Positions 2,925-50,829 of a stretch of DNA of 64,000 nt are shown here, piece by piece. The notes beneath the pieces were generated by a model. That model was not told the origin of the DNA. It did not search any database and saw only the letters and a program-made list of their open reading frames with translations. Within the stretch, counting starts at the first letter, position 1, and every line of letters begins with the position of its first letter. A program made the position numbers and the translations under genes. The DNA comes from Methylobacter sp. (lineage in GTDB: Bacteria; Pseudomonadota; Gammaproteobacteria; Methylococcales; Methylomonadaceae): assembly GCA_030684815.1 (NCBI GenBank), contig JAUXXQ010000196.1:13930-77929 (forward strand), written 5' to 3'.

Positions 2925-3812
2925 TTACAACCGGGACAATACTGCCGCCACTGTTTCACCCATGGCCGCCGGAGCCGGACAGATAGTGACACCCAATTCC
3001 TTCAGTAGCGCGACTTTTTCTGCCGCGCTTTCACCCGCCGATGAAATAATCGCACCGGCATGACCCATGCGGCGGCCTTCCGGTGCAGTCAAACCTGCAA
3101 TATAAGCAACCACCGGCTTAGTCATGTGTTTATTGGCAAACATACCCGCTTCAACTTCTTGCGGCCCGCCGATTTCGCCAATCATAAGAATGACTTTGGT
3201 TTCCGGGTCGGCTTCAAACCTTTCCAGAATATCACGGTGCGAACTGCCGTTGATCGGGTCGCCGCCGATACCGACCGAGGTTGAAATACCGATGCCCAAG
3301 CGTTTCATTTGGTCAGCCGCTTCATAGCCTAACGTACCTGAACGACCGACGATGCCGACATTGCCCTTCATGTAAATATGCCCCGGCATGATACCCAGCA
3401 TGGCGCGCCCCGGACTGATAGTGCCCGCGCAGTTAGGGCCGGTCAACATCATGCGTTGTTCCAGCGGAAAACGGCGCAGGAAATTTTTAACCGTCATCAT
3501 GTCCTGAGTCGGAATGCCGTCGGTAATCGCCACACAATATTTAATGCCCGCATCGGCGGCTTCCATGATGGAATCGGCGGCAAAAGCAGGCGGCACAAAG
3601 ATAATGCTGGCCTCGGCGCCTACTTCGCGCACCGCCTCTTTGACCGTATTGAAAACCGGCAAACCTAAGTGCGTCTGCCCGCCCTTGCCCGGCGTGATGC
3701 CGCCGACGACATTGGAGCCGTAATTGATCATGTCCTGGGCGTGAAAGCTGCCGATTTTTCCGGTAAAGCCCTGAACAATAATGCGTGTTGTTTCGTCAAT
3801 TAAAATAGCCAT
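2925..3812 (-). CDS. mtkB: Malate-CoA ligase (malate thiokinase) alpha subunit, SucD family
   Basis: SucD-family motifs QGFTG, GPNCAG and MGHAGA (phospho-His). Clustered with mcl, sga and hpr, which favours MtkB over TCA-cycle SucD. Confidence 0.85.
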   Translation of the reverse strand: MAILIDETTRIIVQGFTGKIGSFHAQDMINYGSNVVGGITPGKGGQTHLGLPVFNTVKEAVREVGAEASIIFVPPAFAADSIMEAADAGIKYCVAITDGIPTQDMMTVKNFLRRFPLEQRMMLTGPNCAGTISPGRAMLGIMPGHIYMKGNVGIVGRSGTLGYEAADQMKRLGIGISTSVGIGGDPINGSSHRDILERFEADPETKVILMIGEIGGPQEVEAGMFANKHMTKPVVAYIAGLTAPEGRRMGHAGAIISSAGESAAEKVALLKELGVTICPAPAAMGETVAAVLSRL

Positions 3813-3814
3813 TT

Positions 3815-5008
3815 TTATGCTCCCTGTGCCGCTTCTTTTGCAACCGCTTCATTGCGCGCCTGCACCGCTTTTTCAGCCGCTTCGGCCAGCGTTTCCGCAG
3901 TAATGATAGGCAGGCCGCTGTCTGCAATAATTTTCCGGCCTTCCTCAACGTTAGTGCCTGACAACCTGACAATCAACGGTATTTTCATATCGATTTTCTT
4001 AACCGCTTCAACCACGCCTTCAGCAATCCAGTCGCAACGGTTGATACCGGCAAAAATATTTACCAACATGGCTTTGACGCCCTTGTCGGCCAACACCAAA
4101 CGAAAAGCCTTTTCGGTGCGTTCAGCCGAAGCGCCGCCGCCGACATCAAGAAAATTCGCCGGTTCGCCGCCCGCCAATTTAATCATGTCCATCGTCGCCA
4201 TCGCCAAACCGGCGCCATTGATCATGCAGCCGATGTCGCCATCTAAGCCGACATAACTTAAACCTCGGTCGGCAGCAGCCATTTCGCGAGGGTCTTCCTG
4301 CGTTTTATCGCGCAATTCGGAAATTTTCTGCTGACGGAACAAGGCATTGTCATCAAAACCCATTTTGGCATCCAGCGCGACCAACTCATTGCTACGGGTA
4401 ACCACCAACGGATTGATTTCCAACATACTGGCATCAAGCTCACGCAAGGCACGGTAACAGCCACGGATAGTCTTAACCGCATGGCTCAGCAATTCAGGAT
4501 CCAGACCTAGAGCAAAAGCCATTTCACGCGCCTGATAATCTTGCAGCCCCACAGCAGGTTCGATATAAATTTTAGTGATGGCTTCAGGATTGTTTTCAGC
4601 CAACTCCTCGATTTCCATGCCGCCTTGAGCCGAACCCACCATAACGATACGCTCAGAACTGCGGTCAACCAAAAAACAAAAATACAACTCCTTGGCAATG
4701 TCGGTGCCGGCTTCGACATATAACCGGCCGCATACTTTACCAGCAGGCCCGGTTTGATGGGTCACCAGCCGTTTGCCCAACAATGCGCCCGCCGCCGCCT
4801 CGACTTCATCGTGGGTCTTGCAAATTTTAATGCCGCCCGCCTTGCCACGCGCCCCGGAATGGACTTGCGCCTTGACCGCCCAAATGTGCCCGCCAATGTC
4901 TCTGGCACGCTGTACCGCTTCTTCAGGGCTGTAAGCCATACCGCCTTCAGCGATTTTAACGCCGTAACCGCTTAAAATTTCTTTCGCCTGATATTCATGA
5001 ATATCCAC
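3815..5008 (-). CDS. mtkA: Malate-CoA ligase beta subunit, SucC family
   Basis: Likely GTG start at 5008 ([10 protein letters not shown]) with AGGAG upstream. Motifs [23 protein letters not shown] and NFLDVGG. Directly downstream of mcl. Confidence 0.85.
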
Positions 5009-5064
5009 AGCATCTCCTAATTTATGTGTTGCGTAGGCCGGATTAAGGTAACCCGGCAAGACTG

Positions 5065-6012
5065 TTATTTTTTTGCCGCAATCGCTTCAGCAGCCCTAAC
5101 CACGTTATTGGCCATTTTTTCCGATGCCGCGTCAATCAAACGGCCATCGAGTGCTGCAGCGCCTTTGCCTTGTGCCGCTGCTTCTTTTAAAGCGACCAAA
5201 ATACGCTTGGCTTTTTCAACTTCAGCCGCAGGCGGGGTGAATATTTCATTGGCTAATTCGACTTGTGAGGGATGAATCGCCCATTTGCCTTCGCAACCTA
5301 AAGCCGCCGCGCGCCTTGCCGCTAGTTTGTAGCCTTCCGGGTCTTTAATATCGCCAAACGGGCCGTCAATCGGGCGCAAGCCATAAGCACGGCAAGCCAC
5401 CGTCATCCGGCTGATGGCAAAATGCCATTGATCGCCCGGATAATCGGGATTCAAGCCACCGATATTGGTGGTTCTAGCACGGTTGCTGGCCGCATAATCG
5501 GCCACGCCGAAATGCAAGGCTTCAAGACGGCCCGATGCGCCGTTGCGGGCAATATCTTCGACATTGGCCATGCCCAAAGCGGTTTCAATCAAGGCTTCAA
5601 TGCCGATTTTGTTTTTCAGCCCCTGTTGCATTTCCAGCTGGTTCAGCATCGCTTCAACCATATAAACATCGGCATAAACACCCACTTTAGGAATCAAAAC
5701 CGTGTCCAGCTTAGCGCCGCACTGTTCGACCAAATCGACCACATCACGCACCATGTACTGCGTGTCCAGGCCGTTGATGCGCACCGAAATGGTGACGCCG
5801 TGCCCTTTCCAGTCCAGGTCGTTAATCGCTTCGATAATATTCTTTCTGGCTTGCAGCTTGTCATCCGGCGCTACCGCATCTTCCAAATCCAGAAAAATAA
5901 AGTCCGCGCCACTTCTCATCGCTTTTTCAAACATCTCAGGGCTAGACCCCGGAACGGCTAATTCACAGCGTTGAACGCGTTGTACTGACGCTGCATATAA
6001 AGTGTGGCTCAT
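5065..6012 (-). CDS. mcl: Malyl-CoA lyase (CitE/HpcH family)
   Basis: [27 protein letters not shown] and GKWAIHPSQ motifs; start MSHTLY at 6012 with AGGA upstream. Confidence 0.92.
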
Positions 6013-6340
6013 GGGTACTTTCCTAATGTCATTGTAGTAAATCATCTAAGGTACGCACTGCGCACCCTCTGCGTAGTCGGCTTAATAACGGTACGCCGTG
6101 TACACCCTGCAAAGCCCTTGTAGATACAGACTATGCGGGCAACTTAAGCCAAACTCAAATTAACCGAGCATTTTACTTCGGGAGCCCTTAAAGTCAATTT
6201 TTACCGCGTATTTTCCAACCACTACCCTAATCTAATCTTGCCGATTTTTAGCGGCTATGTCATTATTGCCGGTTTTTGGGCGTTGGCTTTTCAGCGCCCA
6301 AACCGCGTTAATCACTCAACTACTACAAAGAGGCAATGCA

Positions 6341-7507
6341 ATGGCTGGTCGTAACCACCTATATATTCCTGGCCCTACCAATGTGCCAAACGAAATCCTG
6401 AACGCTATGCATGTCACCATGGAAGACCATCGTTCGCCTACATTTCCAAAACTGCTGACCCCCCTTTTACAAGATTTGAAAAAAATCTTCAGAACGGAAA
6501 CCGGGCAAGCGTTTATTTTTCCGGCGACCGGTACCGCAGGCTGGGAAGTTGCATTGACCAACACCTTAAATCCGGGCGACAAGGTCTTGATCTATCGCTT
6601 CGGCCAATTTAGCCATTTATGGGCTGAAATGGCAAAACGTCTGGGGTTCGACGTTGAAATCCATCAAGAAGCTTGGGGCAAAGGCATTCCTCTGGACAAA
6701 CTGGAAGCCCGTTTAAAAGAAGACACCAACCACGAAATCAAGGCCGTTTTAGCCACACATAACGAAACCGCTACCGGCGTTACTAGCGACATTGGCGGCG
6801 TACGCAAAGCCATGAACGCGGCAAACCACCCCGCATTTTTATTCGTCGACGGCGTCAGTTCGATTGCCAGCCTAGATTTCCGCATGGACGAATGGGGTAT
6901 AGACGGCGCCATCAGCGGTTCGCAAAAAGGTTTCATGATGCCTGCCGGCGGCGCGTTCCTGGCGTTTAGCCAAAAAGCCTTGGCCGCAGTTGAAACCTGC
7001 ACTTATCCGCGCTGCTTCTTGGATTTAAGGGATCAGATGAATGCCAACAAAGACGGCTACACACCTTATACACCCGCGTTGCCGATTCTTTACGGCTTGC
7101 GCAAAGCGTTAGACATGTTGTTGGAAGAAGGCATGGAAAACGTTTACGCACGTCATCATCGTTTGGCTGAAGGCGTCCGTAAAGCCGTTGCCGCTTGGGG
7201 TTTAACAACCTGCGCACAACCCGGTTTCGAGTCGGACACCGTGACTGCGATTATGGTTCCCGCAGATAAAGATGCTAAAGACGTGATCAGCACTGCTTTT
7301 AGCCGATACGACATCTCTTTAGGCGCGGGCTTATCCGAATTGGCCGGCAAAGCCTTCCGTATCGGTCACGTTGGCGACATGAACGATGTGTCAATGTTAG
7401 GTTGTATCGCTGGCGTTGAAATGGCGATGCTGGATAACGGCTTTGATTTCAAGCCGGGTGTTGGCGTTGCTGCAGCGATTGAATACTACCGTTCAACTGC
7501 ACAGTAA
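6341..7507 (+). CDS. sga: Serine-glyoxylate aminotransferase (class V PLP)
   Basis: MAGRNHLYIPGPTN start (ATG 6341, AGAGG upstream); HNETATG and SGSQKG PLP-Lys motifs. Confidence 0.92.
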   Translation: MAGRNHLYIPGPTNVPNEILNAMHVTMEDHRSPTFPKLLTPLLQDLKKIFRTETGQAFIFPATGTAGWEVALTNTLNPGDKVLIYRFGQFSHLWAEMAKRLGFDVEIHQEAWGKGIPLDKLEARLKEDTNHEIKAVLATHNETATGVTSDIGGVRKAMNAANHPAFLFVDGVSSIASLDFRMDEWGIDGAISGSQKGFMMPAGGAFLAFSQKALAAVETCTYPRCFLDLRDQMNANKDGYTPYTPALPILYGLRKALDMLLEEGMENVYARHHRLAEGVRKAVAAWGLTTCAQPGFESDTVTAIMVPADKDAKDVISTAFSRYDISLGAGLSELAGKAFRIGHVGDMNDVSMLGCIAGVEMAMLDNGFDFKPGVGVAAAIEYYRSTAQ

Positions 7508-7520
7508 ACGATAAAAAATA

Positions 7521-7606
7521 GAACACGGATGCCACGGATTTTAACTGATAACCACGGATAAAAATTTCATAAAGAAAATCCGTTTAATCCGTGCCATCCG
7601 AGTTCC
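7521..7606. repeat. Palindromic repeat, AACACGGAT/ATCCGTG family
   Basis: gaacacggatgccacggat...atccgtttaatccgtgccatccgagttcc; related sequences near 21165-21203, 36435-36533 and 39485-39571. Confidence 0.7.
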
Positions 7607-7668
7607 ATTATAAAACTAACAAATGCTGAATCCTTAACTTAACGGCATTGCCCTGATGAGGATAAAAC

Positions 7669-8640
7669 ATGAGCAAACCCAAAGTCTTTGTTACCCGAAA
7701 ATGGCCTTCCTCGGTCGAGGCCAAACTCAAAACCCTCTACGACGTCACCTTAAACGAAGATGACCGGCCATTAACTGCGGACGAATTCAAATCCGCATTG
7801 CAACACTACGACGCTGTTTGCCCCACGGTTTGCGATTCATTGCCTGCCGAGGTGATTAACGTCGACAACAAGCGCTGCAAAATCCTCGGCAACTTCGGTG
7901 TCGGCTACAACCATATCGACATTCCGGCGGCCAAGGCGCAAGGCTTAATCGTCACCAACACACCCGGCGTATTGACGCACAGCACCGCCGATATTGCGAT
8001 GACTTTATTGCTGATGTCCGCCCGGCGCGGCGCGGAAGGCGATCGTCTGGTTCGCGCCAAACAATGGCAAGGCTGGTGCCCGACGCACATGCTCAGCAGC
8101 GATGTCACCGGCGCAACTTTGGGCTTAATCGGCTTTGGCCGTATCGCGCAAGCGATGGCAAAAAAAGCCCATCACGGCTTCGGCATGAAAATCATCTATT
8201 TCAAACCCAGCCCGGCCGATGACTATGTTGTTGAAGACCTAAACGCCATTCGTTGCGAGTCTATCGAAGAGCTGTTGCAAGTGGCCGATTATGTGTCGCT
8301 GCACTGCCCCGGCGGCGAAGCTACCCGGCATTTAATCAATGCCGGCAGGCTCAAGCTGATGAAACCGACCGCGCATTTAATCAACACCGCCCGTGGCGAT
8401 GTGGTCGACAGCACCGCACTGATTGAAGCACTTAAAAATAAACGCATAGCCGGTGCCGGCCTTGATGTGTATGAGGGCGAACCCAATGTCCACGAAGGCT
8501 TTTTAAGCCTGGATAACGTCTCGTTACTGCCGCATTTAGGTAGCGCCACCTTAGGCACACGCACGGCGATGGGCGAAAAGGTGCTAGCTAACCTAGCCGC
8601 TTTTTTTGCTGGAAACCAGTTACCTGACCAGGTTGCCTAA
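7669..8640 (+). CDS. hpr: Hydroxypyruvate reductase / D-glycerate dehydrogenase (D-2-hydroxyacid DH)
   Basis: GVGYNHID, IGFGRIA, NTARG, LDVYEGEP and PHLGSAT motifs; follows sga. Confidence 0.85.
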   Translation: MSKPKVFVTRKWPSSVEAKLKTLYDVTLNEDDRPLTADEFKSALQHYDAVCPTVCDSLPAEVINVDNKRCKILGNFGVGYNHIDIPAAKAQGLIVTNTPGVLTHSTADIAMTLLLMSARRGAEGDRLVRAKQWQGWCPTHMLSSDVTGATLGLIGFGRIAQAMAKKAHHGFGMKIIYFKPSPADDYVVEDLNAIRCESIEELLQVADYVSLHCPGGEATRHLINAGRLKLMKPTAHLINTARGDVVDSTALIEALKNKRIAGAGLDVYEGEPNVHEGFLSLDNVSLLPHLGSATLGTRTAMGEKVLANLAAFFAGNQLPDQVA

Positions 8641-8886
8641 CGAACCCGTTGTAGCCCGGCAAATGCCTTGAAAACAGTACAGGCTAAATTTTCAATGGCT
8701 ATACTGGGGATTAGCCACTATAATACCGCCCTTAGTAAGGCGGCACTCCGTTCCCATACGGGACGTCTACTTTAAGTTTTGCATGTTATTCAGCACTTTT
8801 CAGAAACTCCATTCGCTTTTCTTTTTAAAATTGCCCGGCATGATTTGCAATCAAACATTTTCTCATTGATTTATATAGGTAATTTT

Positions 8887-9093
8887 ATGGCAACAGGTAC
8901 TGTTAAGTGGTTTAACGAAGCAAAAGGTTTTGGTTTTATTTCACCTAGCGATGGCAGCGCAGATGTGTTTGTACACTTTTCTGCAATCGCCAGCGACGGC
9001 GGCTACCGCACATTGGCTGAAGGCCAAGCGGTTAAGTACGACGTAGAATCAGGCCCTAAAGGCCCACAAGCATCACAAGTAAGCGCCGCTTAA
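8887..9093 (+). CDS. cspA: Cold-shock domain protein (CspA family), 68 aa
   Basis: [18 protein letters not shown] and VFVHFSAI (RNP1/RNP2); true start at ATG 8887, not 8779. Confidence 0.95.
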
Positions 9094-9114
9094 AAAACGC
9101 CTTACTTTTCCTAT

Positions 9115-9145
9115 CCAACCCAGCATCTCAACAATGCTGGGTTGT
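9115..9145 (+). terminator. Stem-loop after cspA
   Basis: caacccagcat-ctcaaca-atgctgggttg inverted repeat about 20 bp after the stop codon; the U-tract is weak. Confidence 0.5.
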
Positions 9146-9200
9146 GACATAACCGGATCATCCGGCTCATCAACTCACCCCCCAATTTAGGACATGTCTT

Positions 9201-9467
9201 TTGAAACGAATTTTTGTAGGAAACTTACCTAGCGAAGCCACTGAAGAAACTGTACAGGCTTTATTTTCTGAATACGGCAAAGTCCGTTCCATTCAACTTG
9301 TTTCCGACATATTTAGCGGAAAATGCCGGGGCTTCGGCTTTATCGGCATGGAAGGCCACGAAGCAAGAGCTGCAATAGCCGCACTGGACGGCAATCTCTA
9401 TTGCGGAAAACCTCTAAAAGTTAAATTTGAAGATACCACCGCCGGTAAAAACGGCAGACGCAATTGA
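9201..9467 (+). CDS. RRM (RNP-1) RNA-binding protein
   Basis: IFVGNL (RNP2) and RGFGFIGM (RNP1); TTG start preceded by AGGA. Confidence 0.9.
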   Translation: MKRIFVGNLPSEATEETVQALFSEYGKVRSIQLVSDIFSGKCRGFGFIGMEGHEARAAIAALDGNLYCGKPLKVKFEDTTAGKNGRRN

Positions 9468-9588
9468 AACAACATCCTGACTCCCCGCTACACCCCTGAT
9501 GACTCAACGACCTTGGCTATATGGCCAACAGAGCTTTAGAATCTTTCATTAGCCGCAACAGTCGGCAAATTCAGATAAAAATCAGGCA

Positions 9589-9645
9589 AAGGTACAAGGC
9601 GAAAAAGCCAAGCTTCAAGCAAGCTGCGTTTTCGCCTTGCACCTT
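9589..9645. repeat. Palindromic repeat (AAGGTACAAGGCGAAAA/TTTTCGCCTTGCACCTT)
   Basis: 17-bp near-perfect inverted repeat; same family as 1401 and 2849. Confidence 0.7.
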
Positions 9646-9702
9646 GAATTAACCGCCCGCATGCAAAAAAATAACGCTTGACATCAAATCCGGCCAATCA
9701 TC

Positions 9703-9949
9703 TTTTCCACAAGCGAATACAAACTATTTTTGTTTCAAGCGGATAATCGGAAAAGTTCACACGGCGACCAAAATAGTCCCAATAACGCCACCTTTTACAC
9801 AGCTAACTCATTGATAGTTATTATCATATCAACTGTAAAACAGGCAGTGGCCACAATCTGGCCGATTTAACAAAAAAGCTTTAGAAGTGAATAGTTAGAC
9901 ACTTTATTTTCAGTTTATACACAGAGTTATCCACAGAAAATGTGGATAA
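9703..9949. promoter_or_regulatory. Cluster of five DnaA boxes plus an IHF consensus site (DARS/datA-like)
   Basis: TTWTNCACA matches at 9703-9711, 9793-9801, 9915-9923 and 9927-9935 (+), and 9941-9949 (-). IHF consensus WATCAANNNNTTR on the - strand at 9804-9816. Confidence 0.75.
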
Positions 9950-9980
9950 CTCGGCTTCAGTATTTAGATGCAGCCATCCA

Positions 9981-11435
9981 TCAACCGAAATTGATTTTAG
10001 CCTCCAAATCATTGCTGGAATCGGCATTTCTCAACGCCTCTTCCAAGGTGATTTTTCCGTCCGTATATAATCCAAACAAGGCGTCATCAAATGTTCTCAT
10101 GCCTTTGCTGCCGCTAGATGCCATCGCTGCCTTAATTTCATGCAAATCGCCCTTTAAAATCAGGTTTGCAATGTGCGGGGTGTTGATCATTACTTCAATC
10201 GCGGCACAGCGCTTACCTGCAATGTCGGGAATCAGACGCTGGGAAATAACCGCACTCAAATTGGTAGCAAGATCCATAAATAATTGGCCATGGTTTTCAT
10301 GCGGATACATATTGATGACCCGTTCCATGGCTTGGTTAGCGTTATTCGCGTGCATTGTGGAAATACATAAATGACCGGTGTTAGCCAGTTCCAACGCCGC
10401 CGACATGGTTTCCCGGTCACGAATCTCGCCGATTAAAATCACATCCGGCGCTTCCCGCAAACAGGCTTTTAGCGCACGGGCGTAAGAATCGGTATCGACG
10501 CCGACTTCGCGCTGATTGACAATAGATTTCAGGTTAGGGTGCGAAAATTCGACCGGGTCTTCAATAGTCAAGATGTGTCCCGCTGAATTGGCATTACGGT
10601 GGTTAATCATCGCCGCCAGCGTGGTAGACTTGCCCGAACCAGTGCCGCCGACCATCAGCAACAAACCACGTTTGGCCATAATCAATTCCATTAAAATGTC
10701 CGGCGTACCCAAATCCTTGCCGGTCGGGATGACAGAAGGAATCAAACGCATGACCAAACCGACGGTTTTGCGCTGATAAAAGGCATTGGCGCGAAAGCGC
10801 GCACTACCATCAGGCAAGCTAATGGCAAAATCCAGATCTTTGGTGACTAAAAACTCGTCAATTTGTTCCTGCGTCATAATGCTAAACGCACCCGATTGGG
10901 TCAATTCAGGCGTCAGCAAAAAATCATCCAGCGGTACGGCACGGCCAAAAATCTTGGCTTTAACCTGTGAACCCACCGTCAGAAACAAATCCGATGCCTC
11001 CAAACGGGTCATTTCTTGCAGATAAGGCAAAATATTCAAGCCGCCTTCCGGTAGCGCCCCCAAAATCTGATGACTAACCGGCTGTTGCCTGCGCTCCGGT
11101 CCGGCATAAGACGCCGCATCGACGTCGGTCGATACCTGCTCCGGCACAATAAACAGCACCAGACCATTATCTTCAACCTTGGCGCTGACCAAAAACGTCT
11201 CGCCGCCGGGAGCGGCACAGCTAAATTCCAGTGCTTTATTGTGGACTAATTCCTGCTTTTGCTGCTCGTCAATCAGGCTAAAGGTGATTTCCTTGATAAT
11301 ATTCGGGCTTAACTCGTTTTTACCTAACGGATATGACTCGCCAGCCAAGCCCAAAAGCGCTGGTGAACCCGCCTTTAAAGACAGGCTATCGGCTTTTTTT
11401 TCCAACATTAATTTTAAATACGGTGTCAGGCTCAT
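9981..11435 (-). CDS. pilU: PilT/PilU-family type IV pilus retraction ATPase with a duplicated N-terminal domain
   Basis: GGTGSGKST Walker A, TIEDPVE, LREAPDVILIGEIRD and TMHANNANQ; extra ~130-aa N-terminal extension. Confidence 0.88.
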   Translation of the reverse strand: MSLTPYLKLMLEKKADSLSLKAGSPALLGLAGESYPLGKNELSPNIIKEITFSLIDEQQKQELVHNKALEFSCAAPGGETFLVSAKVEDNGLVLFIVPEQVSTDVDAASYAGPERRQQPVSHQILGALPEGGLNILPYLQEMTRLEASDLFLTVGSQVKAKIFGRAVPLDDFLLTPELTQSGAFSIMTQEQIDEFLVTKDLDFAISLPDGSARFRANAFYQRKTVGLVMRLIPSVIPTGKDLGTPDILMELIMAKRGLLLMVGGTGSGKSTTLAAMINHRNANSAGHILTIEDPVEFSHPNLKSIVNQREVGVDTDSYARALKACLREAPDVILIGEIRDRETMSAALELANTGHLCISTMHANNANQAMERVINMYPHENHGQLFMDLATNLSAVISQRLIPDIAGKRCAAIEVMINTPHIANLILKGDLHEIKAAMASSGSKGMRTFDDALFGLYTDGKITLEEALRNADSSNDLEAKINFG

Positions 11436-11446
11436 GGGTATTCCGC

Positions 11447-12631
11447 TTATTGTTGCTGTTTAATGACGCCAACATTGGCAGCGTGTGTCTCATCTTCATC
11501 GCCACCGTCATCTTTTGACTGCAATGAAAGCCCGCCACTCGACCGGTCTTCACCCGAAGCCAATTTGATTTGCAGACGCAACTCGTTTTGGGAATCGGCA
11601 TTCCTTAACGCTTCGTCATAATCTATTTTGCCCGCCTGATACAGCTCCAACAACGCCTGATCAAAAGTTTGCATGCCCAATTCACGTGATTTTGCCATCA
11701 ACGGCTTGATGCTGGCCGCTTCGCCTTTGGCGATATAATCCGAAATCAACGGCGTATTTAACAAGATCTCAATCGCCGCACAGCGGCCGCCATCAACGGT
11801 CTTGACCAAACGTTGGGAAATAATGGCGCGTAAATTGACCGAAATATCCTGCATCAGCTTAGTCTGAGCCTCCATCGGGAAAAAACCTAAAATCCGGTCG
11901 ATAGCTTGGTTGGCATTGTTCGCATGCAAAGTCGCCAATGCCAAATGGCCGGTTTGGGAAAACTCCAACCCGTATTCCATAATTTCGGCACTGCGGATTT
12001 CGCCCAGCACAATCACATCGGGAGCCTGCCGCAAGGTATTGTGCAGCCCGGCTTCCCAGCTTTTGGTATCGACACCGACTTCCCGCTGCATGACAATGCA
12101 GTTTTTATGGGCATGCACATATTCAATCGGGTCTTCCAGCGTGATGATATGGCCGTAACTGTTGGCGTTACGATGGTCGATCATCGCCGCCATCGAGGTC
12201 GATTTACCCGAGCCGGTACCGCCCACCATGATGATCAGGCCGTTTTTGTGCATCATCACCTCTTTTAAAACAGGCGGTAAACCCAATTTATCAAAATTGG
12301 GTATTTCTGCAGCAATAACGCGGATAACCAAACCCTGGCAGCCTTGCTGGACATAGGCATTGACCCGAAACCGGGATAACCCAGCCGGCGCAATGGCAAA
12401 ATTGCACTCTTGAGTTTCTTCAAATTCTTTCAGCTGCTTATCATTCATAATGCACTGTGTCAGCGCTTTGGAATCGTTAGCCGACAAGGGCTGCTGCGAA
12501 ACCGGCGACATCTTGCCTTTGATCTTGATGGCAGGCGGAAAACCGGCGGTAATAAATAAATCAGACCCTTCTTTATGCAACATAAGTTTGAGCAACTTAA
12601 TCATAAAGTCCATCGCTTCTTTTCTTTCCAT
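11447..12631 (-). CDS. pilU: Type IV pilus ATPase PilU
   Basis: GGTGSGKST, TLEDPIE, LRQAPDV and TLHANNANQAIDRI; PilU-type C-terminus. Confidence 0.9.
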   Translation of the reverse strand: MERKEAMDFMIKLLKLMLHKEGSDLFITAGFPPAIKIKGKMSPVSQQPLSANDSKALTQCIMNDKQLKEFEETQECNFAIAPAGLSRFRVNAYVQQGCQGLVIRVIAAEIPNFDKLGLPPVLKEVMMHKNGLIIMVGGTGSGKSTSMAAMIDHRNANSYGHIITLEDPIEYVHAHKNCIVMQREVGVDTKSWEAGLHNTLRQAPDVIVLGEIRSAEIMEYGLEFSQTGHLALATLHANNANQAIDRILGFFPMEAQTKLMQDISVNLRAIISQRLVKTVDGGRCAAIEILLNTPLISDYIAKGEAASIKPLMAKSRELGMQTFDQALLELYQAGKIDYDEALRNADSQNELRLQIKLASGEDRSSGGLSLQSKDDGGDEDETHAANVGVIKQQQ

Positions 12632-49458: not shown

Positions 49459-50829
49459 TTAAAAATCTTTCCAAGTGCCGGGAATGGCGCTAATGGCATA
49501 AGGCAGTGTGGTGGGTAATACATCCGGTGGATAGAGAGTATTATTTATCGCGCCATCATTACTGAAATCGATAGCAATAAATCTTGAATTGGCGTTAGGT
49601 TTATCCACATCACCTTCCCAAATAACAGAACCATAAATGTCAGCGCCGCCCCAACCATTCGAGGCGCAGGCTGTTGTAGACTCAAAATAGACAATGCCAT
49701 AGATGACAATACCGCCATTAAGTTTAGGGCAGCCATAAGCACTGGGAACAATCAATATAACTGGCGTACTCGGCGTACCAATTGTCTTATTATTCACACC
49801 GACACCCGAGCAACTGCCTACTATCGCACCTGAGTTAATATTGCCGTTTTGATGAATAAGATAAATGGGCGCACCGGATGGCGCGCCACAAGGGATATTG
49901 CTGGTAAAAACATTACCTGCGCTGGTCGCGGCCGCTTTAGCTGCTGTCAAACTGCCACCATTAAACGCGTGGTTCCAGGCACAATTGTTAGTGTTAGGCA
50001 CGGGGCAGAGTTCATCGAATTGACCACGCTTAAATGTCGTTGAATTAGCTGCAGATTCACCGCTATCCATAACACCGTTGTTATTGGCATCGTTCCAAGT
50101 ACCGACATTCAAATGGCCTTGCGGCAAACAAGAAGCACCACTTGACTTGCCACTGATTACAGCAGTATCACCTGCTGCCAACAAAAAGGTATCCGGTGTT
50201 CCGGTAGCGGCTGAGGTAATGCAGCCCGCCATAACCCAAGGCGGCGGCATACTAAATCCAGTGGGCCCGACTTCGGGCGGCACATAATTGGTCGGTGCTT
50301 GACTAACAATAAACATTTCCGATGTGGCCGTAACACTGTTGTCTGCATTGCGTGCTACCGATTTAACACGGATAGCAGAGCCTGAAAAAGCTGCCGGTAT
50401 TTCAGTATAGACTAGCTCCCCTAATGTATAAGTCTCGCCTGAACTGGTCATGCCGCTGCCCGGTAACGCTAAAGCCGGACAATCGGCTGAGGGGGTAATG
50501 TCTGAGCCGCAAGCAAAATTTCTTTCACCATTTTCATCCATCGACTCCCATTTAAGAAAATGCACAGGTGCATAATGGCTGCCGTCTGCTACCCATTCTG
50601 ATTTTGTCGCATAAGCCAAGGCAAATTCCAATCCGGCTTCTGCCGATTCTCTGGCTTCACGGGCGCGAATATCATTACCGGTAATTCTTTGCTCCATAAT
50701 ACCGGTGCGTGCTGTCGTCAAGGCGGCAACACCCATAATCATCGCCAGCACCAGGACTACAATTAAAGTAGCAGCGCCTTGCTGGCGAGATTTTATATTG
50801 AGGTTAAAAGCAATCATGTCTGCCTCCAC
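49459..50829 (-). CDS. pilX: PilX-like minor pilin with a long C-terminal extension
   Basis: QQG|AATLIVVLVL (no E5), EQRITGND.RA.EA..SAEAGL. Confidence 0.85.
   Translation of the reverse strand: MEADMIAFNLNIKSRQQGAATLIVVLVLAMIMGVAALTTARTGIMEQRITGNDIRAREARESAEAGLEFALAYATKSEWVADGSHYAPVHFLKWESMDENGERNFACGSDITPSADCPALALPGSGMTSSGETYTLGELVYTEIPAAFSGSAIRVKSVARNADNSVTATSEMFIVSQAPTNYVPPEVGPTGFSMPPPWVMAGCITSAATGTPDTFLLAAGDTAVISGKSSGASCLPQGHLNVGTWNDANNNGVMDSGESAANSTTFKRGQFDELCPVPNTNNCAWNHAFNGGSLTAAKAAATSAGNVFTSNIPCGAPSGAPIYLIHQNGNINSGAIVGSCSGVGVNNKTIGTPSTPVILIVPSAYGCPKLNGGIVIYGIVYFESTTACASNGWGGADIYGSVIWEGDVDKPNANSRFIAIDFSNDGAINNTLYPPDVLPTTLPYAISAIPGTWKDF

What the first reader, a model, noticed from the sequence alone, without database searches (positions are those of the whole stretch)
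9703..9949. Five DnaA boxes and an IHF site between convergent genes: candidate DARS/datA-type initiator-control locus
Seen: five TTWTNCACA matches in 250 bp. Three form a tight core, TTATACACA-gag-TTATCCACA-gaaaa-TGTGGATAA (two direct, one inverted). An IHF consensus lies about 100 bp away (9804-9816, - strand), with two more boxes beyond it. At 50% GC about one such match per 16 kb is expected by chance. Established: E. coli DARS elements have a three-box core with one inverted box, and DARS2 and datA depend on IHF. Inference: this is a DnaA-reactivating or titrating site in a lineage where I know of no description. No dnaA, rpmH or mnmG context and no clear 13-mer DUE is visible, which argues against oriC.
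Basis: partly seen in the sequence, partly recalled or inferred. Interest (0 to 1): 0.7.

Follow-up and report, generated by a model that had tools for sequence, protein, structure and literature searches.

The report
DARS-like DnaA/IHF control element

Summary
Five perfect TTWTNCACA boxes lie in 247 bp, the densest such cluster in the 4.29-Mb genome.

The three-box core (9915-9949) has the order, orientation and 3-bp/5-bp spacers of the E. coli DARS cores. Its only E. coli chromosomal match is DARS1, in the uvrB-bioD gap.

The core is one end of a ~280-bp element (9671-9950) kept in about 29 Methylobacter species, always after the csp-RRM gene pair and between convergent genes. The invariant parts are:
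- a distal DnaA box
- the specified positions of an IHF consensus, whose N4 positions vary freely
- a Fis-type palindrome
- the core

Spacing is nearly fixed: 98 bp from IHF to the core and 92 bp from the distal box to IHF.

The genome holds a close paralogue (C173) and a more diverged one (C143). The same four-part layout, with a shorter arm, recurs across Gamma- and Betaproteobacteria.

It is not oriC. There is no GC-skew switch and no DUE, it is multicopy, and better origin candidates lie on other contigs.

DnaA keeps Gln208 and Leu290. Hda, IhfA and IhfB are present, and a Fis-like protein scores just below its cut-off.

Verdict: a DARS-type DnaA-reactivating site (about 0.68), with its own arm architecture. 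A datA-like or titration role is not excluded. No biochemistry has been done.

The parts
9589..9645 (+). Strong hairpin after the RRM gene; probable 3' end of the csp-RRM transcript, just upstream of the element
   Evidence: The fold gives -29.7 kcal/mol, z = -3.4. Metatranscriptome contigs of a related strain cover 8772-9469 and run on to about 9660, but do not cover the element.
9671..9950 (.). The whole conserved non-coding element (type A DARS-like element)
   Evidence: Alignment of 30 sequences has sharp conservation boundaries at ATAA.GCTTGACA and TGTGGATAAC. A paralogue on C173 aligns over the same span. 56 of 61 relatives have a match.
9677..9683 (+). Invariant CTTGACA block of unknown partner, specific to type A
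   Evidence: Invariant in 30/30 aligned sequences. No usable -10 hexamer lies at 16-18 bp. Not seen in the loci from other families of the class.
9703..9711 (+). Distal DnaA box TTTTCCACA, in the same orientation as boxes II and III
   Evidence: Invariant in all type A sequences. It lies 92 bp from the IHF site in 21/29, with outliers at 81 and 82 bp. A box in the same orientation lies further out, beyond the IHF site, in 13/20 loci from other families of the class.
9793..9801 (+). TTTTACACA box, not conserved and probably fortuitous
   Evidence: Absent from the paralogue and from nearly all orthologues.
9804..9816 (-). IHF-binding consensus (TATCAATGAGTTA = WATCAANNNNTTR)
   Evidence: The full consensus is present in 29/30 aligned sequences while the N4 positions vary. 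The gap to box III is 98 bp in 26/29.
9849..9863 (.). Fis-type palindrome GGCCACAATCTGGCC (GNNYANNNNNTRNNC)
   Evidence: The full consensus is kept in 28/30. It starts 66 bp before box III, the same offset at which 11/20 loci from other families have a full Fis consensus.
9864..9914 (.). Highly conserved spacer block (CGAT.TAACAAAAAAGCTT.A.AAGTGAATAGTTAG ... TTTATTTTCAG), including a possible weak fourth DnaA box AGTGAATAG at 9886-9894 (-)
   Evidence: Near-invariant columns. The weak box has 2 mismatches to TTWTNCACA, read directly from the sequence.
9915..9923 (+). Core DnaA box III (TTATACACA)
   Evidence: Positions 4 and 5 vary among species while CACA is invariant.
9927..9935 (+). Core DnaA box II (TTATCCACA, full consensus), 3 bp after box III
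   Evidence: Same position and sequence as box II of E. coli DARS1.
9941..9949 (-). Core DnaA box I (TGTGGATAA on +), head-to-head with box II across a 5-bp spacer
   Evidence: The 5-bp head-to-head spacing is the DARS hallmark (PMC6868365).

Best explanation
Window 9671-9950 is a chromosomal DnaA-reactivating sequence of the DARS2 type.

Proposed mechanism (inferred, not shown):
1. ADP-DnaA, produced by Hda-dependent hydrolysis, binds the perfect box II and recruits protomers to boxes I and III.
2. The head-to-head pair on boxes I and II (5-bp gap) releases ADP through the Gln208 interface.
3. Apo-DnaA leaves and rebinds ATP, raising ATP-DnaA for initiation at an origin elsewhere in the genome.
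4. IHF bound at 9804-9816 bends the DNA by about 180 degrees. This folds the distal arm (DnaA box 9703-9711 and the CTTGACA block) back onto the core.
5. A Fis-type site at 9849-9863 lies between the bend and the core.

Shown here: the site architecture, its conservation, its fixed spacing, and the presence of the protein partners.
Inferred: binding, looping and the direction of nucleotide exchange.
For: 1. Core architecture. The core TTATACACA-gag-TTATCCACA-gaaaa-TGTGGATAA has the same order, orientation and 3-bp/5-bp spacers as two E. coli cores. These are DARS1, TAATACACA-tgg-TTATCCACA-ggaat-AGTGGATAA, and DARS2, TTCTTCACA-act-CTATCCACA-gaaaa-GGTGAATAA. PMC6868365 defines that geometry as the essential DARS core.

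2. E. coli match. A blastn of the core against 5,426 E. coli genomes finds a match in 5,424, a median of one place per genome. The two chromosomal hits inspected lie in the uvrB-bioD gap, which is DARS1.

3. Conservation. The element is present in 56/61 relatives. In about 29 species of the genus it lies in the same place, after csp-RRM.

4. Footprint. Conservation falls on DnaA-box and IHF consensus positions, while N positions vary.

5. Spacing. The IHF-to-core gap is 98 bp in 26/29. The distal-box-to-IHF gap is 92 bp in 21/29, with outliers shorter by 10-11 bp.

6. Polarity. The order I-II-III-IHF matches E. coli DARS2.

7. Paralogues. Copies on C173 and C143 keep the core, the IHF site and a distal box.

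8. Partners. Hda, IhfA and IhfB score above their NCBIfam cut-offs, and a Fis-like protein is present. DnaA is 64% identical to E. coli K-12 DnaA, with K178, Q208, R285, L290 and the domain IV contact residues invariant.

9. No gene starts next to the element in any species.

10. Wider family. The core architecture is in 199/301 genomes of the class, against 0 hits for the reversed control.
Against: - No binding or nucleotide-release data exist for this or any non-enteric element.
- The arm differs from E. coli DARS2. The Fis-type site lies between IHF and the core rather than beyond IHF, and the distal partner is a consensus DnaA box.
- DnaA boxes on both sides of an IHF site also recall datA.
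- The Fis-like protein scores 90 bits, below the 99-bit Fis cut-off.
- There is no synteny with uvrB or mutH.
- In 4 of about 30 species, boxes I and II of this copy carry off-consensus changes.
- The position relative to oriC is unknown, because the assembly has 235 contigs.
Confidence: 0.68

Rival explanations
1. A datA-like or purely titrating locus. The DnaA boxes on both arms of an IHF bend assemble ATP-DnaA oligomers that either hydrolyse ATP (as in DDAH) or simply sequester DnaA. This would lower initiation potential rather than raise it.
For: DnaA boxes flank a single IHF site, as in minimal datA. Like datA after the tRNA-Gly operon, the element lies directly after the terminator of a highly expressed operon. 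All five boxes match the consensus, so they would titrate DnaA well.
Against: The core has the head-to-head 5-bp geometry that defines DARS. Its E. coli match is DARS1, not datA. The geometry is kept class-wide with invariant spacers, which simple titration would not require.
Confidence: 0.17
2. A transcription-linked element: a DnaA-controlled promoter for a small RNA, or a DnaA/IHF roadblock that insulates the convergent csp-RRM and downstream transcription units.
For: Conserved TACAAT-like and TTAACA...AATAGT hexamers lie inside the conserved block. The box II/I inverted repeat would form a 12-bp RNA hairpin. E. coli DARS1 and DARS2 overlap the uvrB and mutH promoters. DnaA binding can block read-through at datA and asnC.
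Against: No Rfam family matches. Promoter-like hits are at the chance level, 3 found against 1.6 expected. No -35 hexamer is conserved. RNA contigs stop before the element. Box I variants are not compensated in box II, and they fall at degenerate DnaA-box positions. No gene starts beside the element in any species.
Confidence: 0.08
3. It is the chromosomal origin (oriC) or a second origin.
For: It is the densest DnaA-box cluster in the genome and has an IHF site, as E. coli oriC does.
Against: GC skew is negative on both sides of the element across the 90-kb contig. The most AT-rich 40-mer is only 78% AT, against 95% at C146. The element has two paralogues in this genome. Better candidates exist: C146:5487-5912, which is single-copy in the 19 genus genomes where it was found, and the dnaA-dnaN spacer.
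Confidence: 0.02

Closest known systems
E. coli DARS2 (DnaA-reactivating sequence 2, rppH-mutH gap)
   Same: A three-box core with I/II head-to-head at 5 bp and II/III in tandem at 3 bp, even the same gaaaa spacer. The IHF site is on the box III side. The total length is about 260-280 bp. It depends on a bend placed midway between the core and a distal protein-binding arm. A Fis-type consensus is present. It is non-coding and lies outside oriC.
   Different: In E. coli the order is core, IBS1-2, FBS2-3, with low-affinity boxes V in the distal arm. Here the order is core, Fis-type site (-66), IHF (-111), consensus DnaA box (-212). There is one IHF site instead of two. The IHF-to-core gap is 98 bp against about 59-75 bp. 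There is no mutH synteny. Activity is untested.
E. coli DARS1 (bioD-uvrB gap)
   Same: It is the best sequence match: 30/35 identical across the core, with an identical box II and identical spacer lengths.
   Different: DARS1 is about 100 bp and needs no IHF or Fis. The window element has a 240-bp conserved regulatory arm. There is no uvrB synteny.
E. coli datA (DnaA-ATP hydrolysis locus)
   Same: It has a single IHF site flanked by DnaA boxes. It lies directly downstream of a strongly transcribed operon whose read-through reaches the locus.
   Different: The essential datA boxes (2, 3, 7) are not described as a head-to-head 5-bp pair plus a tandem box. The core found DARS1, not datA, in E. 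coli genomes.
Four-part DnaA/IHF/Fis platform of Beta- and Gammaproteobacteria
   Same: It has the same core, the same Fis-type site at -66, and the same orientation of the IHF site and distal box.
   Different: The widespread form has IHF at -98 and the distal box near -177. The window's type A form carries about 12 and 22 extra bp in the two arms, plus a CTTGACA block.

Membership tests
DARS (DnaA-reactivating sequence) | Three DnaA boxes, with I and II oppositely oriented across a 5-bp gap, and II and III in the same direction across a 3-bp gap | tested here: met
   9915-9949 reads III(+)-3-II(+)-5-I(-). The definition comes from PMC6868365.
DARS (DnaA-reactivating sequence) | Sequence relatedness of the core to the E. 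coli DARS cores | tested here: met
   30/35 identical to the DARS1 core. It matches 5,424/5,426 E. coli genomes (median one place each), and the two chromosomal hits inspected are DARS1. By hand count, 27/35 are identical to the DARS2 core.
DARS (DnaA-reactivating sequence) | Non-coding chromosomal site distinct from oriC | tested here: met
   It lies between convergent genes. There is no skew switch, no DUE, and it is multicopy.
DARS (DnaA-reactivating sequence) | The host DnaA keeps the residues needed for DARS-dependent ADP release (Gln208, Leu290) and the DnaA-box-reading domain IV | tested here: met
   Alignment with E. coli K-12 DnaA shows Q208, L290, R285, R399 and D433-T435 invariant. 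The roles of these residues are taken from PMC6868365.
DARS (DnaA-reactivating sequence) | The host makes ADP-DnaA through Hda (RIDA), so that reactivation has a substrate | tested here: met
   An Hda equivalog scores 264 bits against a 194.8-bit cut-off.
DARS (DnaA-reactivating sequence) | Promotes ADP dissociation from ADP-DnaA and raises ATP-DnaA and initiation in vivo | not testable with these tools
   This needs [3H]ADP-release assays plus flow cytometry or marker-frequency analysis.
DARS2 subtype | An essential IHF site between the core and a distal activator-binding arm | tested here: met
   The IHF consensus is 9/9 in 29/30 sequences and lies 98 bp from box III. The distal conserved arm lies 92 bp further on. 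Actual binding was not tested.
DARS2 subtype | Fis sites (FBS2-3) in the distal arm beyond IHF | tested here: not met
   The only conserved Fis consensus (9849-9863) lies between IHF and the core. The distal arm holds a DnaA box and CTTGACA. The host Fis-like protein is below its family cut-off.
DARS1/DARS2 orthology | Synteny with uvrB-bioD or mutH-rppH | tested here: not met
   The neighbours are csp-RRM on one side and pilU-like or other genes on the other.
datA | A cluster of boxes around one IBS that assembles ATP-DnaA and promotes hydrolysis | tested here: inconclusive
   Boxes do lie on both sides of one IHF site, but the core geometry is that of DARS. The E. coli match is DARS1, not datA. 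Hydrolysis cannot be tested here.
oriC | A DnaA-box array next to an AT-rich unwinding element at the GC-skew switch, in single copy | tested here: not met
   Alternative candidates lie on C146 and C163.

The most novel reading that the evidence does not exclude
The element is a genus-specific, lengthened version of an old four-part DnaA/IHF/Fis platform shared by Beta- and Gammaproteobacteria.

Throughout Methylobacter it is fixed directly behind the terminator of the cold-shock csp-RRM operon. Read-through from that strongly and conditionally expressed operon could evict IHF or DnaA from the element, as tRNA-Gly read-through does at E. coli datA.

That would couple the recharging of the replication initiator to temperature or growth state.
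Probability: 0.15. Interest if true: 0.75.

Novelty: new variant of a known kind. Interest (0 to 1): 0.55.

Why it matters
DARS-mediated recycling of ADP-DnaA has been shown only in E. coli. In the papers I could search, DARS-like sequences are reported only for its close relatives and Vibrio cholerae.

This methanotroph element has the exact DARS core, a strictly spaced IHF site, a Fis-type site and a distal DnaA box, and the same platform occurs across Beta- and Gammaproteobacteria. That would make nucleotide recycling of the initiator an old and general layer of replication control.

It also gives a natural variant in which a fourth DnaA box sits where E. coli DARS2 has Fis sites. Whether the distal arm activates or feeds back is directly testable in vitro, because the DNA-reading domain of this DnaA is conserved with that of E. 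coli.

Tried and rejected
- Rfam scan of 9000-10400 at E<=1: only two sub-threshold chance hits.
- Sigma-70 promoter and terminator scan: at the chance level, and no conserved -35/-10 pair.
- RNA fold of 9860-9965: the z-score of -4.4 is only the inverted repeat of boxes II and I. Box I variants are not compensated, so an RNA hairpin reading was rejected.
- Metatranscriptome contigs show csp-RRM RNA ending near 9660 and nothing over the element. Contigs cannot prove absence.
- GC skew gives no switch on C141, and is too noisy on C146 and C163 to fix oriC.
- CTTGACA as a -35 hexamer: the 17-bp partner is TCTTTT or CCTTTT, so this was rejected.
- Fujimitsu et al. 2009 (PMC2685538), which lists DARS candidates in other species, is not held. 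I could therefore not see how far those authors traced the core.
- Literature searches for DARS-like elements outside the enterics returned only the V. cholerae remark.

Full report
**1. Observation**

The window has 12 TTWTNCACA matches. Five of them lie at 9703, 9793, 9915 and 9927 (+) and 9941 (-). The core reads TTATACACA-gag-TTATCCACA-gaaaa-TGTGGATAA.

The window is C141:13930-77929 of a 4.29-Mb, 235-contig, 49% GC genome. An earlier scan note says it is a Methylobacter. Named Methylobacter records carry the same element.

Genome-wide there are 391 matches (0.091 per kb), so about 0.02 are expected in 247 bp. This is the densest cluster in the genome.

The IHF consensus is met 9/9 at 9804-9816 on the - strand.

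The flanking genes converge on the element:
- a cold-shock protein gene (8779-9093) and an RRM RNA-binding protein gene (9201-9467) on the + strand
- a PilT/PilU-type ATPase gene (9981-11435) on the - strand

**2. The core is a DARS core**

A blastn of 9900-9960 against 5,426 complete E. coli genomes found a match in 5,424, a median of one place per genome. The two chromosomal hits I opened lie in the uvrB-bioD gap, which is where DARS1 lies.

The three cores, read from box III to box I:

| Element | Box III | spacer | Box II | spacer | Box I | Source |
|---|---|---|---|---|---|---|
| Window | TTATACACA | gag | TTATCCACA | gaaaa | TGTGGATAA | |
| E. coli DARS1 | TAATACACA | tgg | TTATCCACA | ggaat | AGTGGATAA | |
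| E. coli DARS2 | TTCTTCACA | act | CTATCCACA | gaaaa | GGTGAATAA | |

I located the DARS2 core in MG1655 as the interval between the deletion primers of PMC4585315.

PMC6868365 states that the essential DARS core is three boxes. Boxes I and II face each other across 5 bp, and boxes II and III point the same way. It also says the spacing is conserved in DARS candidates of other species. The window core meets each of these points.

**3. The core is one end of a 280-bp conserved element**

A second copy on C173 (36526-36806, - strand) aligns with window 9671-9950 from ACGCTTGACA to TGTGGATAACTC.

A search of 61 relatives found the element in 56. In about 29 species of the genus it lies 450-600 bp downstream of the csp-RRM pair. 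The right-hand neighbour varies, but is always on the opposite strand. No gene therefore starts next to the element.

The 30-sequence alignment shows short invariant blocks in otherwise free sequence:
- CTTGACA (9677-9683)
- TTTTCCACA (9703-9711)
- TAA-N4-TTGAT, which are exactly the specified IHF positions, while N4 varies (9804-9816)
- a long block holding a palindromic Fis consensus (9849-9863, kept in 28/30)
- TTTATTTTCAG followed by the core

The box at 9793 is not conserved.

Spacing is nearly fixed. The gap from the IHF site to box III is 98 bp in 26/29 species. The gap from the distal box to the IHF site is 92 bp in 21/29, and the two short outliers (81 and 82 bp) differ by about one helical turn.

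The IHF site is thus about midway between the core and the distal arm. PMC11724364 describes the same for DARS2. Shifts of 5 bp hurt DARS2 more than shifts of 10 bp.

**4. It belongs to a family that reaches far beyond the genus**

- Other Methylobacter loci, and a third copy in this genome (C143:31633), have the same parts with shorter arms of 85-87 and 69-71 bp.
- The core pattern, allowing up to 2 mismatches, occurs in 199 of 301 genomes drawn evenly from the class. The reversed control gives 0 hits. There are usually one or two copies per genome.
- I fetched 20 loci from 20 different families. Positions below are counted from the start of box III:
  - 13 have a perfect DnaA box in the same orientation, starting 168-189 bp upstream
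  - 12 have an IHF consensus (at least 8/9) starting at -99 or -98
  - 11 have a full Fis consensus starting at -67 to -65
- The window's Fis-type site starts at -66, the same offset. Its IHF site (-111) and distal box (-212) are displaced by about 12 and 35 bp.
Named organisms include Acinetobacter, Stenotrophomonas, Xanthomonas, Haemophilus haemolyticus, Nitrosomonas, Thiobacillus, Sulfuricella, Methylotenera, Methylophaga and Methylobacter tundripaludum SV96.
- Earlier notes of this scan report the same family in many genomes. I treat these as leads only. My searches check the claim independently.

**5. It is not oriC**

- GC skew on the 90-kb contig is negative on both sides of the element.
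- The richest 40-mer in the element is 78% AT, against 95% at C146.
- The element is multicopy in this genome.
- Two better origin candidates lie on other contigs:
  - C146:5487-5912 has three perfect and two near-perfect boxes, an IHF consensus and an AT-rich run. It is single-copy in the 19 genus genomes where it was found.
  - The dnaA-dnaN spacer on C163 has two perfect boxes and three with one mismatch.

I could not decide between these two candidates.

**6. It is probably not a transcript or a promoter**

- No Rfam family matches.
- Promoter-like hits are at the chance level.
- Metatranscriptome contigs of a related strain cover csp-RRM and end near 9660, behind a -29.7 kcal/mol hairpin. 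They do not cover the element.
- Variants of box I (TGTGGGTAA, TGTGAATAA, TGTGGAAAA) are not compensated in box II. They fall at the degenerate positions of the DnaA-box consensus.

**7. The protein partners are present**

- Hda scores 264 bits (cut-off 194.8), IhfA 162 bits (cut-off 120) and IhfB 157 bits (cut-off 115).
- A Fis-like protein scores 90 bits, just under its 99-bit cut-off.
- DnaA is 64% identical to E. coli K-12 DnaA. K178, Q208, D235, R285, L290 and the domain IV residues are invariant.
- Q208 and L290 are the residues needed for DARS-dependent ADP release.

**8. Mechanism proposed**

- ADP-DnaA binds box II and then boxes I and III.
- The head-to-head dimer on boxes I and II releases ADP, and apo-DnaA rebinds ATP.
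- IHF folds the distal arm, with its DnaA box, onto the core. The Fis-type site lies just inside the bend.

All of these steps are inferred. What is shown is the architecture, its conservation and spacing, and the presence of the partners.

The arm differs from E. coli DARS2 in two ways. The Fis-type site lies inside the IHF site rather than outside it. A consensus DnaA box sits where E. coli has FBS2-3 and the weak boxes V.

A datA-like or titrating role remains possible, because boxes flank a single IHF site. The element also lies directly behind the terminator of a strongly expressed operon, as datA lies behind tRNA-Gly.

**9. Novelty**

In the library searched, DARS function is known only for E. 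coli. DARS-like sequences are mentioned only for related gammaproteobacteria and V. cholerae. The paper that lists candidates in other species is not held.

I file this as a new variant of a known kind: a DARS core with its own arm layout, in Methylococcales. It belongs to a wide family that this scan has met before. That repetition tempers the surprise of this single instance.

Noticed in passing
own genome C22:9040-9074 (outside the window): A DARS-type three-box core (TTTTCCACA-gag-TTATCCACA-gcttt-TGTGGGTAA) sits 38 bp upstream of a 750-aa ORF with PriA motifs (GSGKTEVY, DEEHD, Cys-rich zinc region). An earlier scan note also ties this family to priA.
   Followed up: partly
own genome C143:31478-31667 (outside the window): A third, more diverged copy of the element lies between convergent genes. 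It has the core CAATCCACA-gag-TTATCCACA-gcttt-TGTGAATAA, a perfect IHF consensus 86 bp from box III, and the short-arm layout that is widespread in the class.
   Followed up: partly
own genome C146:5487-5912 and C163:10507-10701 (outside the window): Two candidate origins. One is a single-copy box cluster with an IHF consensus and a 95% AT run, between a MoxR-type ATPase gene and an ion-channel gene. The other is the dnaA-dnaN spacer, with five boxes. Skew on these short contigs does not decide between them.
   Followed up: partly
own genome C173:36526-36806 versus other Methylobacter genomes: The C173 copy resembles the window's type A element, not the short-arm type found at other loci in most Methylobacter species. 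Full-length matches to it were found in only two of the relatives searched (G009, G021). The commonest short-arm variant elsewhere in the genus (box I TGTGGAAAA with a GATTG flank) was not found in this assembly, whose only short-arm copy is C143. This suggests a recent duplication or replacement.
   Followed up: partly
L039:7452-7486 and 7571-7583 (E. coli MG1655, right half of the DARS2 region): The dispensable right half of E. coli DARS2 holds a second core-like triplet (TCTTACACC-atg-TTATCCACA-gaaag-CTGGGATAA on the - strand). An 8/9 IHF match lies at the -98 offset typical of the class-wide platform.
   Followed up: no
window 8772-9660: The csp-RRM pair is present as one RNA contig in three groundwater metatranscriptomes, from a strain about 97% identical. 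It ends behind a strong hairpin (9589-9645) that lacks a U-tract.
   Followed up: partly
window 49601-49609 and 49790-49798: Two more consensus DnaA boxes (TTATCCACA and TTATTCACA, both +) lie 190 bp apart. Their context was not examined.
   Followed up: no
window 2925-8640: A serine-cycle gene cluster: malate thiokinase subunits, malyl-CoA lyase-like, serine-glyoxylate aminotransferase-like and hydroxypyruvate reductase-like ORFs. This assignment comes from reading the translations only and fits a methanotroph.
   Followed up: no
window 9981-11435 (-): The PilT/PilU-type ATPase next to the element is 484 aa long. It has an N-terminal extension of about 130 residues before the T2SSE domain, and a second PilT-like gene lies directly upstream (11447-12631).
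   Followed up: no
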